Source of the DNA: a virus | Taxonomy: Duplodnaviria > Caudoviricetes | Direction: 5' to 3' (one strand) | IMG/VR virus record: IMGVR_UViG_3300006865_000002 | Coordinates: 1-50,867 of that record | Length of the DNA: 50,867 bases | Part shown: positions 17,159-28,323 of the stretch, one piece after another | How positions within the stretch are numbered: position 1 is the stretch's first letter | Layout of the letters: the number at the start of each line of letters is the position of its first letter | Position numbers and translations under genes: made by a program | The notes under the pieces: generated by a model | The model's database searches: none | What the model saw: the letters and a program-made list of their open reading frames with translations, nothing else | What the model was told of the DNA's origin: nothing

Positions 17159-18037
17159 ATGGCATCCGAGTTTTCCAATCGGCTGAAGAAGTTGGGCGCG
17201 AACTGGAAGAAGGCCAGCAAGCGCGACCCTTCCGAGTTCGGCGGGTCTTCCGTCGAAGACGGAATCTACCGTCTCCGCATCACGGAATGCGAGTTGACGG
17301 AATCCGTTTCCTCCGGTCGGCTCCAAATCCATTGGGGCTTCACCGTGGAGGAAGGCGATTCCAAGGGCGAACAGGTTCACGACTACGACGGCTTGGAGTC
17401 GGAAGACAACTTGTTTTTCCTTCAGCGGAAACTTGCCCGGTTGGGCAAGGAAGTTCCCGAAGACATTTCGGCAATCGAACCCGTGTTGGCCGAAATCGTC
17501 AAGGAACGGCCCTTGATCCGTGGCCGGGTCAAGACCAAGGACGACTTCACGCACGTCTATATCAACAAGATGTTGGACGACAAGGGGCAGGACGTGGAGT
17601 TCGCGGAGCCGGACGGCGCGGAGCCCGAGCCCGAGGAAGAAGGCGGCGAGGAAGCCGCCCCGGAAGCGGAGCCCGAAGCCGCCCCGGAGGAAGTCCAGCC
17701 GGAAGCCGAAGCGGAGCCCGCCGCCGAAGCGGAACCCGAGGGGGTCGCGCTGGAAGAGGGAATGCGCGTGACCTTCAAGAGCAAGGGCGCGGACGTCGAA
17801 GGCGAAATCGTGGAGTTCGTGGAGAACGACACGAAAGCCCGGGTCAAGACCGACGCGGGCGTTTACAAGGTCGCCGTGGACGCCCTGTCCCCCGTGGAAG
17901 GCGAAGCGGAGCCCGAGCCCGAGCCCGAGCCGGAACCGGAGCCGAAGAAGAAGGCCCCGGCCAAGGCTCCCGCCAAGGCCCCGGCGAAGCCCGCCCCGAC
18001 CAAGACGACGGGGAAGGTTTCCAAGGTCAAGCGGTAG
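17159..18037 (+). CDS. DUF669-like ssDNA-binding protein with acidic linker, SH3-like domain and Lys/Ala/Pro tail
   Basis: DGIYRLRITECE OB-like start; synteny after the exonuclease and Sak4; EP repeats. Confidence 0.7.
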   Translation: MASEFSNRLKKLGANWKKASKRDPSEFGGSSVEDGIYRLRITECELTESVSSGRLQIHWGFTVEEGDSKGEQVHDYDGLESEDNLFFLQRKLARLGKEVPEDISAIEPVLAEIVKERPLIRGRVKTKDDFTHVYINKMLDDKGQDVEFAEPDGAEPEPEEEGGEEAAPEAEPEAAPEEVQPEAEAEPAAEAEPEGVALEEGMRVTFKSKGADVEGEIVEFVENDTKARVKTDAGVYKVAVDALSPVEGEAEPEPEPEPEPEPKKKAPAKAPAKAPAKPAPTKTTGKVSKVKR

Positions 18038-26591: not shown

Positions 26592-26657
26592 GTAAGTAGG
26601 TAGTCGGGTCGGATGGTCCGGCCCAATGCTCTTTGGAAATCGGAAAGGAGGAACGGC

Positions 26658-27197
26658 TTGAACATTGAGCAAGCCTACGAACGGACCAACGCCGTTAAGC
26701 CCGAAGGCACGGTCACGCCACTTACCTTTGAGGAAGCGGAGAAGGCAATCCGAAAGATGTTCCGCCACTTGAAGGGGCGTCGGTTCCCTTACCGCATCGT
26801 GGAGACTTCCGGCAACCGCTACACTTGGCTAAGGGGATCGGAGTTCCGCGTCAACGTGGGCAACGGCTGGTCGGACTTGATCCACTTGTTTTCCCATTGG
26901 TTCCATAGGGAGTACGTCGGGGGTCGGCCCCACTCCAAGAAACACGCCCGGCTTGAAAAGAACCTTCGCAAGTGGGCCGTGGCGCGGGGCTGGTTCAACG
27001 GATCGTTGAAGCCCAAGCCCAAGGAACCGAAGCCGGAACCCGTGGCCGCGCCCGTGGACTTCGTGGCAAAGCGCGAAGCCAAGGCGCGTCGGATGCTGGC
27101 GAAGTGGGAACGCAAGTTGGAGTTGGCGAAGGGCCATCTTCAGAAGTGGCGGGCCAAGGTCCGCTACTACGACAGGAAGAAGACGGCCAGCGCGTAG
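26658..27197 (+). CDS. Hypothetical basic protein with His cluster (possible zincin-like metal site)
   Basis: RBS aaaggagg + TTG; LIHLFSHWFH...PH...H. Confidence 0.6.
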   Translation: MNIEQAYERTNAVKPEGTVTPLTFEEAEKAIRKMFRHLKGRRFPYRIVETSGNRYTWLRGSEFRVNVGNGWSDLIHLFSHWFHREYVGGRPHSKKHARLEKNLRKWAVARGWFNGSLKPKPKEPKPEPVAAPVDFVAKREAKARRMLAKWERKLELAKGHLQKWRAKVRYYDRKKTASA

Positions 27198-27249
27198 GGC
27201 CTTGGAGTAGAGGGAAGGAAAGGGCGGGGCCGAAAGGCCCCGCCCGCAT

Positions 27250-27321
27250 GGGCCTACCAAGGACGGACCGCGTGTAGGTTGGATACTCGCGGCGGGGGTT
27301 CGATTCCCCATAGGTCCACCA
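27250..27321 (+). ncRNA. tRNA-like RNA resembling an isolated tmRNA tRNA-like domain
   Basis: Acceptor GGGCCTA/TAGGTCC with G3-U70, A73, CCA; stemless D loop with GG...GAC; one 9-bp helix; T arm GGGGG-TTCGATT-CCCCA. Confidence 0.65.
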
Positions 27322-27348
27322 ATATTGATCGGACCAACAGGATTTCGG

Positions 27349-27376
27349 TTGACTTTATGGAATGCCCGGCTACGAT
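27349..27376 (+). promoter_or_regulatory. sigma70-type promoter
   Basis: TTGACT-N16-TACGAT; shares TTGACTTTATGG with the 26212 promoter. Confidence 0.55.
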
Positions 27377-27398
27377 TGTGTAGCCGATTGATGGAGGA

Positions 27399-27791
27399 AT
27401 GGACATGGCTAAGGCTCGAATCGAGTACGCGGCGGTTGTCGGCACGGGACAGTTTCCTTTCGACATGCTCCGTTACGACTTCTGTTCCCCGGCGTCGGAG
27501 TCCAAGGACTGTTCGCAGTTGGGGCGGCTGACCGACCCGACCCTTTCGGACAAGGCCACGGCGGAAGAGTTCATCAAGATTCGGGTTGTCGTGGTCAAGC
27601 GCGTGTTCGCGGATTGCGTGGGCGGGGACTGGACGCCCGCGCGCTGGCAATCCTTCGGTTGGGAACTGGTCGCGGGCATGGGGCGGCGTCGATTCGAGTA
27701 CGAAGACGACGCGCGCCGGGCCGGGGAGAACTACGCCGCGTCCCTTCGGATGCACAACAACCATATGCGGAAGGGGACCAACAATGGTTAG
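27399..27791 (+). CDS. Hypothetical protein
   Basis: RBS ggagg; G.G.FPFDMLRYD.C.P motif. Confidence 0.6.
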   Translation: MDMAKARIEYAAVVGTGQFPFDMLRYDFCSPASESKDCSQLGRLTDPTLSDKATAEEFIKIRVVVVKRVFADCVGGDWTPARWQSFGWELVAGMGRRRFEYEDDARRAGENYAASLRMHNNHMRKGTNNG

Positions 27792-28323
27792 CCGCCGCGT
27801 TTGGTGCATCAAACTAAAGCCGCGCGACTTGGACGGCAAAGCGGGCGGGTACTGGTCCGCCAAACCCGGCGACGACATGAAGGCCGGAACCTACGGCGAA
27901 GGGTTCGCGGGGGAAGCCTTGGTCGTGCTGCTGGACGACGATTCCGGGGACTGGTTCGCGGGCTTGGCCCATGCCGCCGGATGCGAAGGCGGGGCGGGTT
28001 GCCGACACGCGGCGGGGCTGGCGGTCAAGGCCCTGTTGGAGAAGGCGGGCGTTTCGCTGGAAGTGAAGACCAAACGGACCAAGCGAGTTTCGCGGGCCGC
28101 GCAATGGGCCGACGCATGTTCCCGGGCGTCCGATGCCCTTTCGACGCTGGCCGAACTCAAGTCCGAATACGAATCGTGGAGGGACAATCTTCCCGAGAAC
28201 TTGCAAACGTCGGCGGTCGGGGAAAAGCTGGATGCGGTTTGCGACCTTGACCTTGATTCGTGCGTGTCCACCATTGAGGAAGCGGAAGGCTTGGACCTTC
28301 CCCTTGGGTACGGAAAGGACTAG
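27784..28323 (+). CDS. Hypothetical protein
   Basis: Overlap coupling; helical C-terminus DNLPENLQ. Confidence 0.6.
   Translation: MVSRRVWCIKLKPRDLDGKAGGYWSAKPGDDMKAGTYGEGFAGEALVVLLDDDSGDWFAGLAHAAGCEGGAGCRHAAGLAVKALLEKAGVSLEVKTKRTKRVSRAAQWADACSRASDALSTLAELKSEYESWRDNLPENLQTSAVGEKLDAVCDLDLDSCVSTIEEAEGLDLPLGYGKD

What the first reader, a model, noticed from the sequence alone, without database searches (positions are those of the whole stretch)
27222..27321. Miniature tmRNA: tRNA-like domain only, with no mRNA-like domain
Seen: a 72-nt RNA with G1-C72, G2-C71, G3-U70, A73 and CCA (AlaRS identity). It has no D stem but a loop CCAAGGACGGAC with GG at 12-13 followed by GAC, one long helix CCGCG-T-GTA/TAC-T-CGCGG capped by a non-canonical loop (no U33), then a short linker and T arm GGGGGTTCGATTCCCC. 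It sits 4 nt after a perfect GAAA hairpin. Known: this is the layout of the SmpB-binding tRNA-like domain of tmRNA, and tag-less tmRNAs exist in some mitochondria. Inference: a phage SmpB/EF-Tu decoy that blocks host trans-translation, or a rescue RNA that adds Ala without a degradation tag, possibly countering mRNA- or tRNA-cleaving defences.
Basis: partly seen in the sequence, partly recalled or inferred. Interest (0 to 1): 0.85.

Follow-up and report, generated by a model that had tools for sequence, protein, structure and literature searches.

The report
Alanine-type tRNA mimic in phage
This phage carries a real gene for a 72-base RNA that keeps the alanine-accepting top of a tRNA but has no usable anticodon; it fits a widespread, apparently undescribed family of compact tRNA look-alikes and is not a cut-down tmRNA.

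Summary
Window 27250-27321 (+) folds as a 7-bp acceptor stem with G3.U70, A73 and an encoded CCA, plus a T arm and one long helix, 4 nt after a GAAA hairpin. ARAGORN and Rfam do not call it: tRNA model 9.6 bits, tmRNA 17.3 bits, mt-tmRNA nothing.

It is not a lone oddity. A sister phage has a syntenic copy with the same acceptor stem and a different but still paired long helix. Pattern and covariance-model searches found the same compact layout in many bacteria and some phages:
- acceptor stem
- mini D hairpin with an NGGN loop
- helix of about 9 layers
- T arm, with almost no linkers

In 22 aligned members, 17 of 25 pairs show changes on both sides. In a model-based Patescibacteria sample, 13 of 13 compact members with 10 different acceptor stems keep G3.U70 and ACCA.

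The tmRNA reading is only partly supported. Three of four bacterial carriers also have a full tmRNA. The published TLD-only RNA of phage DS6A has a different layout. The phage has no SmpB.

Best reading: an alanine-chargeable, non-decoding tRNA mimic of unknown target. This copy is somewhat worn and lacks the antisense partner seen in Patescibacteria. Earlier notes of this scan describe the same family on other DNA.

The parts
27222..27245 (+). Perfect 10-bp G+C hairpin with GAAA loop, 4 nt before the element. It ends the upstream gene (26613-27197). It has no U tract on the + strand.
   Evidence: sequence. One search lists it as terminator-like on the minus strand only. In the sister phage the same slot holds an acceptor-plus-T-arm minihelix.
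27250..27321 (+). 72-nt alanine-type compact tRNA mimic, the whole element.
   Evidence: Not called by ARAGORN or by Rfam at gathering scores. An identical copy is present in an independent DNA run (record 4, 27204-27397, 0 differences).
27250..27256 (+). Acceptor stem, 5' strand. It pairs with 27311-27317, with G3.U70 at 27252/27315.
   Evidence: 7 of 7 pairs. The same acceptor stem occurs in 136 canonical tRNA-Ala genes out of 143 pattern hits.
27257..27267 (+). D region, 11 nt: a 2-bp CC/GG stem around a 6-nt loop holding GG, then one A. This is a degenerate form of the family's mini D hairpin.
27268..27292 (+). Long helix (5 bp, U.U, 3 bp) capped by the 7-nt loop 27277-27283, which has no U33-type base.
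   Evidence: Against the sister phage, 3 of its pairs are changed on both sides and stay paired.
27294..27310 (+). T arm: 4 G-C pairs plus a G.A first pair, with a canonical 7-nt T loop.
   Evidence: the only part matched by the Rfam tRNA model, 9.6 bits.
27311..27321 (+). Acceptor 3' strand, discriminator A (27318) and encoded CCA (27319-27321).
   Evidence: The phage's tRNA-Gln and tRNA-Glu also encode CCA.
27349..27376 (+). Sigma-70-like promoter (TTGACT, 16 nt, TACGAT) 28 nt after the CCA. It is kept together with the element in the sister phage, while the flanking genes differ.
   Evidence: 27295-27364 aligns to L006:17643-17712 at 81%.

Best explanation
The element is a gene for a small stable RNA that copies the upper half of tRNA-Ala on a compact four-way junction and cannot read codons in the normal way. 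It belongs, as a somewhat worn copy without an antisense partner, to a family of alanine-type tRNA mimics found in several bacterial phyla and in some phages.

Inferred path:
1. It has no promoter of its own, so it is transcribed with the upstream gene through the hairpin.
2. Host RNase P cuts it out at G1, and 3' trimming stops at the encoded CCA. The upstream message is left ending in the protective hairpin.
3. Host AlaRS charges the 72-nt RNA with alanine. AlaRS reads only the acceptor end.

What the alanyl-RNA then does is not known. My leading guess is that it occupies or feeds a host factor that recognises the acceptor/T half of Ala-tRNA: a decoy or a donor outside ordinary decoding.

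Shown here: the structure, its conservation and the conserved identity marks. Inferred: processing, charging and the downstream role.
For: - Anatomy.
- The sister phage (primase 83% identical) has a syntenic 71-nt copy with an identical acceptor stem and ACCA. Against it, 4 pairs are changed on both sides and stay paired, and 2 more are changed compatibly on one side.
- 25 of 25 short hits of the acceptor pattern in GTDB genomes have the same compact layout, and ARAGORN calls none of them. Rfam gathering scores give no family for 12 of those loci.
- 22-member structural alignment: 94.5% of cells paired against 73.0% in shuffles; 17 of 25 pairs have changes on both sides; 0 of 500 shuffles reach this; slid controls give 29-53% paired.
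- Identity marks: in a model-based sample of 151 Patescibacteria genomes, all 13 compact matches that I read keep G3.U70 and ACCA. They have 10 different acceptor stems. A canonical 74-nt tRNA control has G3-C70.
- The bacterial Ala identity set is A73, G2-C71, G3.U70, G4-C69 and G20, with no anticodon base (PMC9976931, passages).
- The same GGGCCUA-type acceptor stem belongs to 136 canonical tRNA-Ala genes out of 143 pattern hits.
- The loop lacks U33 and differs in length between the two phages, 7 against 8 nt.
- An identical copy exists in a second DNA data set.
Against: - No expression, processing or charging data. No RNA holder was listed.
- This copy is the weakest member. 5 of 25 model pairs are unpaired against 1 of 25 in the sister phage. 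The MFE z-score is only -1.74.
- Model R1 scores it 40.7 bits, no better than the phage's ordinary tRNA-Glu at 40.9. The link to the bacterial family therefore rests on shared architecture, not on demonstrable homology.
- The invariant acceptor stem in the 22-member set was imposed by the search pattern. R2, used for the 'unbiased' sample, was seeded with G3.U70 and leans towards it.
- The alignment behind one search was fitted to the model structure.
- Context gives no function. The neighbours have no Pfam or named PHROG family, and bacterial contexts vary.
- The Patescibacteria members have an antisense partner that this phage lacks, so the phage copy may work differently or not at all.
Confidence: 0.5

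Rival explanations
1. Cis-acting processing signal only (a 't-element'). The tRNA shape recruits RNase P and 3' trimming enzymes to cut the phage message between the upstream operon and the next promoter. The released RNA itself has no job.
For: - No promoter of its own. It sits 4 nt after a strong hairpin and 28 nt before a conserved promoter.
- The hairpin, element and promoter are kept together while the flanking genes differ between the two phages.
- The phage's three real tRNAs are also scattered singly between genes.
- A more distant relative (L002) carries four tandem tRNA-like units that cannot decode and lack G3.U70.
- Earlier scan notes reached this reading for other phage tRNA look-alikes (not tested here).
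Against: - A cutting signal needs the shape, not the alanine marks. Yet G3.U70, A73 and the encoded CCA are identical in both phages while the interior diverged, and they are kept in 13 of 13 compact bacterial members with varied stems.
- Bacterial members are stand-alone genes with their own terminators and flanking processing stems.
Confidence: 0.2
2. One reading: a miniature tmRNA (tRNA-like domain only) that binds SmpB and EF-Tu. It would either block host trans-translation or add an untagged alanine to stalled chains.
For: - Alanine identity marks without an anticodon are also the hallmark of the tmRNA TLD.
- Phage DS6A carries a TLD-only gene. PMC4131195 states that a similar molecule strongly inhibits tmRNA, citing Mao et al. 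2009. I read passages of PMC4131195 and PMC11915505. I did not see Mao et al.
- The best in-clan Rfam match of the isolated element is tmRNA (17.3 bits).
Against: - That match covers only the T arm and 3' end and is far below the cut-off of 47. mt-tmRNA gives no match.
- The DS6A element has an open D loop and a 4-nt linker before the T arm. Its hit to R1 covers only the 3' part (L225:8520-8561, 19.1 bits).
- The family has a D hairpin and a long helix where an anticodon arm would stand. By inference from the known TLD-SmpB arrangement (recalled), that is the space SmpB occupies.
- 3 of 4 bacterial carriers tested also have a full tmRNA at 97-138 bits. There the family elements score 26.6-28.6 bits on the tmRNA model, below those genomes' best tRNA-length matches at 33-40 bits.
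- The phage has no SmpB.
Confidence: 0.1
3. A decaying tRNA-Ala gene, or a leftover of an attachment site copied from a host tRNA-Ala or tmRNA 3' end, with no present function.
For: - This copy has 5 unpaired model pairs, a G.A pair in the T stem and a 2-bp D stem.
- In the sister phage the upstream hairpin is itself a collapsed acceptor-plus-T-arm minihelix, which suggests decay of a tandem unit.
- Real attP remnants with a similar 3' end exist. Gordonia phage EMsquaredA has one between two integrase genes.
Against: - No tyrosine integrase in this complete 50.9-kb genome with terminal repeats. Serine recombinases were not searched.
- The 5' acceptor strand and the whole fold are present, not only a 3' part.
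- The long helix changed at most positions between the two phages and still pairs. Drift does not do that.
- The exact allele recurs in a second data set.
Confidence: 0.08
4. An unusual but working decoding tRNA that inserts alanine. The 9-layer helix would replace the stacked D and anticodon stems, so the loop sits at the normal distance and reads a codon. The middle loop triplet would read Gln codons.
For: - Other phages carry compact, D-stem-poor tRNA-Ala genes that do have proper Ala anticodon loops: L224 from Vibrio phage D419, L261, L264 and L265 (UGC).
- L262, L263 and L266 (GGC) share the mini D hairpin and the interrupted long helix.
- Some bacterial members have CU-NNN-A-type loops.
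Against: - No U at the U33 position. The loop is 7 nt here and 8 nt in the sister phage.
- Many family loops have a pyrimidine where position 37 would be.
- The phage already has a normal tRNA-Gln(UUG).
- Putting alanine at another amino acid's codons would damage the phage's own proteins.
Confidence: 0.06

Closest known systems
Canonical bacterial or phage tRNA-Ala
   Same: The 7-bp acceptor stem is identical to that of 136 ARAGORN-called tRNA-Ala genes. It has G2-C71, G3.U70, A73 and CCA, a canonical T loop and GG in the D region.
   Different: - No 8/9 linker.
- D arm reduced to 2 bp (3-4 bp in relatives).
- No variable loop.
- About 9 helix layers instead of a 5-bp anticodon stem.
- No Ala anticodon and no U33.
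- Rfam tRNA model 9.6 bits against a cut-off of 29.
tmRNA tRNA-like domain, and the CDS-less 'TLD-only' forms (mycobacteriophage DS6A; about 65-bp plastid forms; PMC4131195 and PMC11915505, passages read)
   Same: An alanine-type acceptor/T half without a decoding anticodon, carried by a phage, of similar size.
   Different: - DS6A (L225:8479-8561) has an unpaired D loop, a 4-nt linker before the T arm and no encoded CCA.
- The window element has a closed junction with 0-1 linker bases.
- tmRNA models do not recognise it.
- Carriers keep a separate full tmRNA.
The 'alanine-tRNA mimic with private antisense RNA' cassette of Patescibacteria, known to me only from earlier notes of this scan. I found no paper on it.
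   Same: The same compact layout and identity marks. My own loci L122, L187, L198, L200, L209, L211 and L213 show the second copy of the helix-plus-loop sequence 37-60 nt downstream.
   Different: The window and its sister phage have no such copy within 500 nt. The best shared words are 8 and 7 nt, equal to the shuffled background. The non-Patescibacteria bacterial members show none either.
tRNA-like processing signals: plant mitochondrial t-elements and MALAT1-mascRNA (recalled; mascRNA is Rfam RF01684)
   Same: A tRNA shape placed right after a structure that protects the upstream RNA's 3' end. The mascRNA model aligns end to end at 14.5 bits, E 0.68, which is not significant.
   Different: Those signals do not need or keep an aminoacylation identity set and an encoded CCA.
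D-arm-lacking mitochondrial tRNAs and non-proteinogenic tRNAs, such as staphylococcal tRNA-Gly used for cell-wall synthesis (recalled); Mom using Gly-tRNA to modify DNA (PMC13219725, abstract read)
   Same: These are precedents for shrunken tRNA bodies and for charged tRNAs that serve as amino-acid donors outside translation.
   Different: No aminoacyl-transferase candidate was identified in this phage. The neighbours have no Pfam family and at best PHROGs of unknown function. The whole genome was not scanned for such enzymes.

Membership tests
tRNA (Rfam RF00005 / ARAGORN) | Cloverleaf with D arm, 5-bp anticodon stem, 7-nt loop with U33, and variable loop; score at or above the gathering score of 29 bits | tested here: not met
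   Only the T arm matches, at 9.6 bits, E 2.4. ARAGORN does not call it. There is no U33.
tRNA-Ala identity (AlaRS substrate) | G3.U70 with G2-C71 and A73 in a 7-bp acceptor stem, plus a CCA end (set taken from PMC9976931) | tested here: met
   Pair 4-69 is C-G rather than G-C, but the same stem occurs in 136 canonical tRNA-Ala genes. G20 cannot be assigned.
tRNA-Ala identity (AlaRS substrate) | Actual alanylation | not testable with these tools
   Needs an in vitro or in vivo charging assay.
tmRNA (RF00023) / mt-tmRNA (RF02544) | Match to the covariance model at the gathering score | tested here: not met
   RF00023: 17.3 bits against 47, 5'-truncated, T arm and 3' end only. RF02544: no match at E<=10.
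tmRNA TLD-only form (DS6A type) | Unpaired D loop leading straight into helix P2, and a linker of several bases between P2 and the T arm | tested here: not met
   The DS6A layout was read. The window has a 1-nt linker, and relatives have 0-1 plus a D hairpin. R1 hits only the 3' part of the DS6A element (L225:8520-8561, 19.1 bits).
tmRNA TLD-only form (DS6A type) | SmpB binding | not testable with these tools
   The phage has no SmpB.
Compact alanine-type tRNA mimic (family defined here and in earlier scan notes) | Acceptor stem, mini D hairpin with GG loop, helix of about 9 layers, T arm, 0-1 linker bases, 70-73 nt | tested here: met
   Aligned full length to R1 at 40.7 bits with 20 of 25 model pairs formed. 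The sister phage scores 62.3 bits with 24 of 25. Caveat: R1 scores an ordinary tRNA-Glu equally.
Compact alanine-type tRNA mimic (family defined here and in earlier scan notes) | Neighbouring small RNA gene complementary to the long helix and loop | tested here: not met
   None within 500 nt in the window or the sister phage. Two 13-mers with one mismatch elsewhere in the window are about what I estimate chance would give.
attP / tRNA-gene remnant | Only the 3' part of a host tRNA or tmRNA gene, next to an integrase | tested here: not met
   The full fold is present. No PF00589 match in the complete genome. Serine recombinases were not searched.

The most novel reading that the evidence does not exclude
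The compact alanine-type mimics are a new class of charged RNA that works outside decoding. In Patescibacteria a private antisense RNA switches each one off by unfolding its long helix. The phage carries a partner-less version that the host cannot switch off. It uses this to force on, or jam, the host pathway that the alanyl-RNA feeds: for example an alanine transfer to a non-ribosomal acceptor, or a sensor of Ala-tRNA charging.
Probability: 0.12. Interest if true: 0.85.

Novelty: new variant of a known kind. Interest (0 to 1): 0.6.

Why it matters
AlaRS reads only the acceptor end, so any RNA that keeps G3.U70 can carry alanine whatever the rest of it looks like. tmRNA is the one well-understood case that exploits this.

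A second family would point to an unrecognised use of alanyl-RNA in cells and in phage-host conflict. This one is structurally distinct. It keeps these marks across distant phyla and has been picked up by phages.

The family is invisible to ARAGORN and Rfam, so it goes unannotated. In practice the report offers a defined 72-nt construct, a better-formed sister copy for comparison, and direct tests: processing, charging, SmpB and EF-Tu binding.

Tried and rejected
- blastn of 26600-27800 against cultured phages: no match.
- The terminase's best cultured relative is only 28% identical, so no host could be named.
- The upstream protein P0001 has no relative in IMG/VR. P0002 has one distant relative, L002.
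- A pattern built on the D-loop words of the window gave 3 hits. All were ordinary or unrelated tRNAs, and I dropped them.
- Earlier-notes look-up by sequence: nothing.
- MAFFT alignments A1 and A2 put several rows out of register for the long helix, so I did not use them for counts. I built R1 from four ungapped rows instead.
- R1 also hits ordinary tRNAs. The 63-row alignment A4 was discarded.
- A class-level sample around the Poriferisodalis genome found the compact form only in the centre genome (1 of 151). I judged all other listed matches, 76-78 nt at 47.9 bits or less, to be ordinary tRNAs by length alone, without checking them one by one.
- Gene neighbourhoods of 11 bacterial loci showed no shared protein family. 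IS1-like transposase fragments next to two of them were not pursued.
- Neighbours in the window have no Pfam or named PHROG family.
- Expression: no RNA holder listed. The contigs laid from two runs guessed to be RNA did not cover the element beyond a 32-nt T-arm piece of another organism. This says nothing about expression.
- Literature: five full-text searches found no description of this compact alanine-type family. Supplements were closed and may hold relevant tRNA lists, for example for PMC5389517, whose allo-tRNAs (passages read) are a different shape.
- I did not search for serine recombinases, aminoacyl-transferases or the alphaproteobacterial two-piece tmRNA.

Full report
WHAT IS THERE. 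The window is a complete 50,867-bp viral record with direct terminal repeats. Its genes lie almost all on the + strand. At 27222-27245 a 10-bp G+C hairpin with a GAAA loop ends the gene at 26613-27197. Four bases later, 27250-27321 can be drawn as follows:
- a 7-bp acceptor stem whose third pair is G.U
- an 11-nt D region with GG
- a long helix of 5 bp, a U.U mismatch and 3 bp, capped by a 7-nt loop
- one linker base
- a T arm with a canonical T loop
- the 3' acceptor strand, then A and CCA

RNAfold returns this fold as the minimum (-30.5 kcal/mol). The z-score is only -1.74, so the single sequence proves little. A sigma-70-like promoter follows at 27349-27376.

WHAT THE DETECTORS SAY.
- ARAGORN finds tRNA-Gln, tRNA-Leu and tRNA-Glu in the window, but not this element.
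- Rfam at gathering scores finds the same three tRNAs only.
- With the element given alone, the best in-clan match is tmRNA at 17.3 bits. The cut-off is 47, and the match is 5'-truncated and driven by the T arm and 3' end. A full-length but insignificant alignment to mascRNA scores 14.5 bits.
- The tRNA model matches only the T arm, at 9.6 bits.
- The mt-tmRNA model finds nothing at E<=10.

By the curated models it is neither a tRNA nor a tmRNA.

THE PHAGE.
- It encodes a family-A DNA polymerase and a primase-helicase-like protein.
- It has no tyrosine integrase and no SmpB.
- It has no close cultured relative.
- The genes around the element have no Pfam family and at best PHROGs of unknown function.

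A SISTER PHAGE. A search with the primase found a 51-kb IMG/VR contig whose primase is 83% identical (L006). The region is mosaic. The flanking genes differ, but the 3' part of the element plus the downstream promoter align at 81%. At the syntenic place, L006:17599-17669, lies a 71-nt element. It has:
- the same acceptor stem and ACCA
- a 3-bp D hairpin with a 4-nt loop
- a perfect 9-bp helix of different sequence
- an 8-nt loop
- a 5-bp T stem

In a structure-guided alignment, four pairs differ on both sides and remain paired, and two more differ compatibly on one side. The sister forms 24 of 25 model pairs and the window 20 of 25. That is the signature of a maintained structure, with the window copy the more worn. 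In the sister phage the upstream hairpin is itself an acceptor-plus-T-arm minihelix.

THE ACCEPTOR STEM IS A GENUINE tRNA-Ala STEM. I scanned IMG/VR and the metagenome collection for this acceptor stem around a T loop.
- The scans gave 143 sequences. ARAGORN of them tRNA-Ala, 1 tRNA-Arg, and leaves 6 uncalled.
- One uncalled sequence (L067) is called tRNA-Ala(UGC) when the whole locus is given.
- The others are the sister phage and four 72-73-nt elements with the window's layout.

Restricting the same pattern to short lengths in one genome per GTDB species gave 25 hits of 70-73 nt. ARAGORN called none of them. By record title they come from:
- Acidimicrobiia, Poriferisodalis and Microthrixaceae
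- Peribacteria, Peregrinibacteria and Gracilibacteria
- Saccharibacteria
- Sphingomonas and Sphingorhabdus
- an alphaproteobacterium
- Terriglobia
- Abyssobacteria
- Bacteroidota

Rfam gathering scores name no family for the 12 loci I tested.

THE FAMILY LAYOUT. Folding the interior of each member shows one plan:
- acceptor stem
- immediately, a mini D hairpin of 3-4 bp with an NGGN loop
- immediately, a helix of about 9 layers, often with one mismatch or small internal loop in the middle
- a loop of 7-10 nt
- 0-1 linker bases
- T arm

I built model R1 from four ungapped rows. I used it to align 22 distinct members, counted pairs on that alignment and then built model R2 from it.
- 94.5% of cells form standard pairs, against 73.0% in shuffles.
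- 17 of 25 pairs have changes on both sides: all 4 D-hairpin pairs, all 9 long-helix pairs and 4 of 5 T-stem pairs.
- 0 of 500 shuffles reach any of the measures.
- Sliding the partners by 1-3 columns drops pairing to 29-53%.

Caveats:
- The alignment was fitted to the model.
- The acceptor stem is invariant there because the pattern demanded it.
- R1 does not separate weak members from ordinary tRNAs. The window element scores 40.7 bits and the phage's tRNA-Glu 40.9.

ARE THE ALANINE MARKS SELECTED? To escape the pattern bias, I searched 151 Patescibacteria genomes with R2. I read the 13 compact matches (71-73 nt) in six genomes other than the centre.
- They carry 10 different acceptor stems.
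- One has a mismatch at pair 4.
- All 13 have G.U at 3-70 and end in ACCA.
- A 74-nt canonical tRNA picked up by the same search has G-C there.

R2 was seeded with G3.U70 and leans that way, so this is good but not clean evidence. The bacterial alanine identity set lies wholly in the acceptor end, apart from G20 (PMC9976931, passages).

The distribution is patchy. Around the Poriferisodalis genome only the centre itself, 1 of 151, had a compact match. Each of the five carrier genomes searched had a single copy.

IS IT tmRNA? Two papers (passages read) record a 'TLD only' tmRNA gene in mycobacteriophage DS6A. They state, citing Mao et al. 2009, which I did not see, that a similar molecule strongly inhibits tmRNA, perhaps by titrating SmpB.

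I located the DS6A element at L225:8479-8561. It has an unpaired D loop running into a short helix, a 4-nt linker before the T arm and no encoded CCA. ARAGORN does not call it, and R1 hits only its 3' part (L225:8520-8561, 19.1 bits). That is a different architecture.

Of four bacterial genomes carrying the compact element, three also have a full-length tmRNA far above the cut-off (137.7, 120.4 and 97.3 bits). The fourth is a Sphingomonas MAG, and I did not test it with the two-piece model. A decoy against one's own tmRNA is unlikely to be the family's function. It could still be the phage's use of it, and I give that 0.1.

THE ANTISENSE PARTNER.
- In all seven Patescibacteria loci from the pattern scans, the 5' strand plus loop of the long helix recurs 37-60 nt downstream. 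The copy is direct in six loci and inverted in the Saccharibacteria locus.
- Earlier notes of this scan read this as a separately transcribed small RNA complementary to the mimic. That changed my reading of the repeat.
- The sequences fit. The direct copies lie beyond a two-way terminator and would be transcribed from the other strand.
- By eye, 9 of the 13 further members show such a copy within 100 nt. I did not score this by script.
- The window and its sister phage have none within 500 nt. Their best shared words, 8 and 7 nt, equal the shuffled background. The non-Patescibacteria bacterial members have none either.

COMPACT BUT DECODING RELATIVES. Several phages carry unannotated, D-stem-poor tRNA-Ala genes that keep a proper Ala anticodon loop: Vibrio phage D419 and its many relatives and IMG/VR loci L261-L266. 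Three of those loci share the mini D hairpin and the interrupted long helix. The compact body can therefore probably decode when it has an anticodon loop. The window element does not have one: no U33, and a 7-nt loop against 8 nt in its sister.

HOW IT MOST LIKELY WORKS. Shown here: a conserved fold, conserved alanine marks and the absence of a decoding loop. Inferred:
1. Co-transcription with the upstream gene.
2. Excision by RNase P and 3' trimming to the encoded CCA.
3. Charging by AlaRS.

The step after that is open. I rank the readings as follows:
- a trans-acting alanyl-RNA mimic of unknown target: 0.5
- a pure processing signal: 0.2
- the SmpB decoy: 0.1
- decay or an attP remnant: 0.08
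- a decoding tRNA: 0.06

Mom's use of Gly-tRNA to modify DNA (PMC13219725, abstract) shows that phages can use charged tRNAs as donors. I found no candidate transferase among the ten genes next to the element that I scanned.

EXPRESSION. No RNA holder was listed. A DNA run from another study holds 27204-27397 without a single difference, so the allele is real and circulating.

VERDICT. The tmRNA label is not, although 'alanine acceptor without an anticodon' stands. The element is a partner-less, somewhat worn phage member of a compact alanine-type tRNA-mimic family that curated tools miss. I could not find the family in the searchable literature. The scan has met it before on other DNA.

Noticed in passing
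L006:17553-17587 (same phage as L069 and L226); window 27222-27245: In the sister phage the hairpin just upstream of the element is an acceptor-stem-plus-T-arm minihelix with a canonical T loop and no CCA. The window has a plain GAAA hairpin in that slot. It looks like a collapsed second tRNA-like unit.
   Followed up: partly
L002:418-785 (IMGVR_UViG_3300046167_000720): Four tandem 65-68-nt tRNA-like units with a D arm, a 6-nt anticodon-type loop and varied acceptor stems without G3.U70. ARAGORN calls three of them 'tRNA-???'. They lie about 2.2 kb upstream of a homologue of the window's gene at 27399-27791.
   Followed up: no
L122, L187, L198, L200, L209, L211 (direct) and L213 (inverted), 37-60 nt after each element: A second copy of the mimic's helix-plus-loop sequence, which changes together with the helix from genome to genome. 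It fits the antisense partner RNA described in earlier scan notes. Several further examples are visible in L269 and L298-L304.
   Followed up: partly
L205, L214, L197, L220 (direct, 138-164 nt downstream) and L202 (inverted, 476 nt): In the Poriferisodalis and Acidimicrobiia carriers, the 10-11-nt sequence of the mimic's D hairpin recurs downstream. These lengths are at or only just above the shuffled maxima of 10-13. Meaning unknown.
   Followed up: no
L222:1442-1862 (Pseudomonas phage SM1, NC_041877.1, about 54041-54461): ARAGORN calls a permuted (two-piece) tmRNA with tag ANDTSFDVRLAA in a stretch with no annotated feature, next to a tRNA-Arg. The same 3' end matches in four more Pseudomonas phage records (PaMx31, a second SM1 record, vB_PaeS_FBPa45 and UF_RH6).
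   Followed up: partly
L224:1457-1527 (Vibrio phage D419, OZ195672.1); 289 Vibrio phage records matched: An unannotated 71-nt compact tRNA-Ala(UGC) without a proper D stem. It lies under two 'hypothetical protein' CDS annotations inside a tRNA cluster, and ARAGORN misses it.
   Followed up: partly
L223:1501-1530 (Gordonia phage EMsquaredA, MK433275.1): The 3' end of a tRNA-Ala or tmRNA-type gene between two tyrosine integrase genes. This is a textbook attP core and a useful contrast to the window element.
   Followed up: no
L208:1581-2507 and L217:119-949: ORFs with weak IS1-type DDE transposase matches lie directly downstream of the compact element in a Bacteroidota MAG and an Abyssobacteria MAG. 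In L217 an ordinary tRNA sits 4 nt after the element. An IS1595 transposase lies upstream in L199.
   Followed up: no
L268 and L297 (genome G237), about 65-100 nt downstream of the elements: A second T-arm-plus-acceptor-3'-end with ACCA follows the compact element, as if its 3' half were duplicated.
   Followed up: no
window 27197-27222 and L006 about 17530-17552: Both phages keep a short conserved stretch after the upstream stop codon. It contains the first six bases of the element's 5' acceptor strand, so it could offer an alternative pairing partner for the 3' acceptor strand.
   Followed up: no
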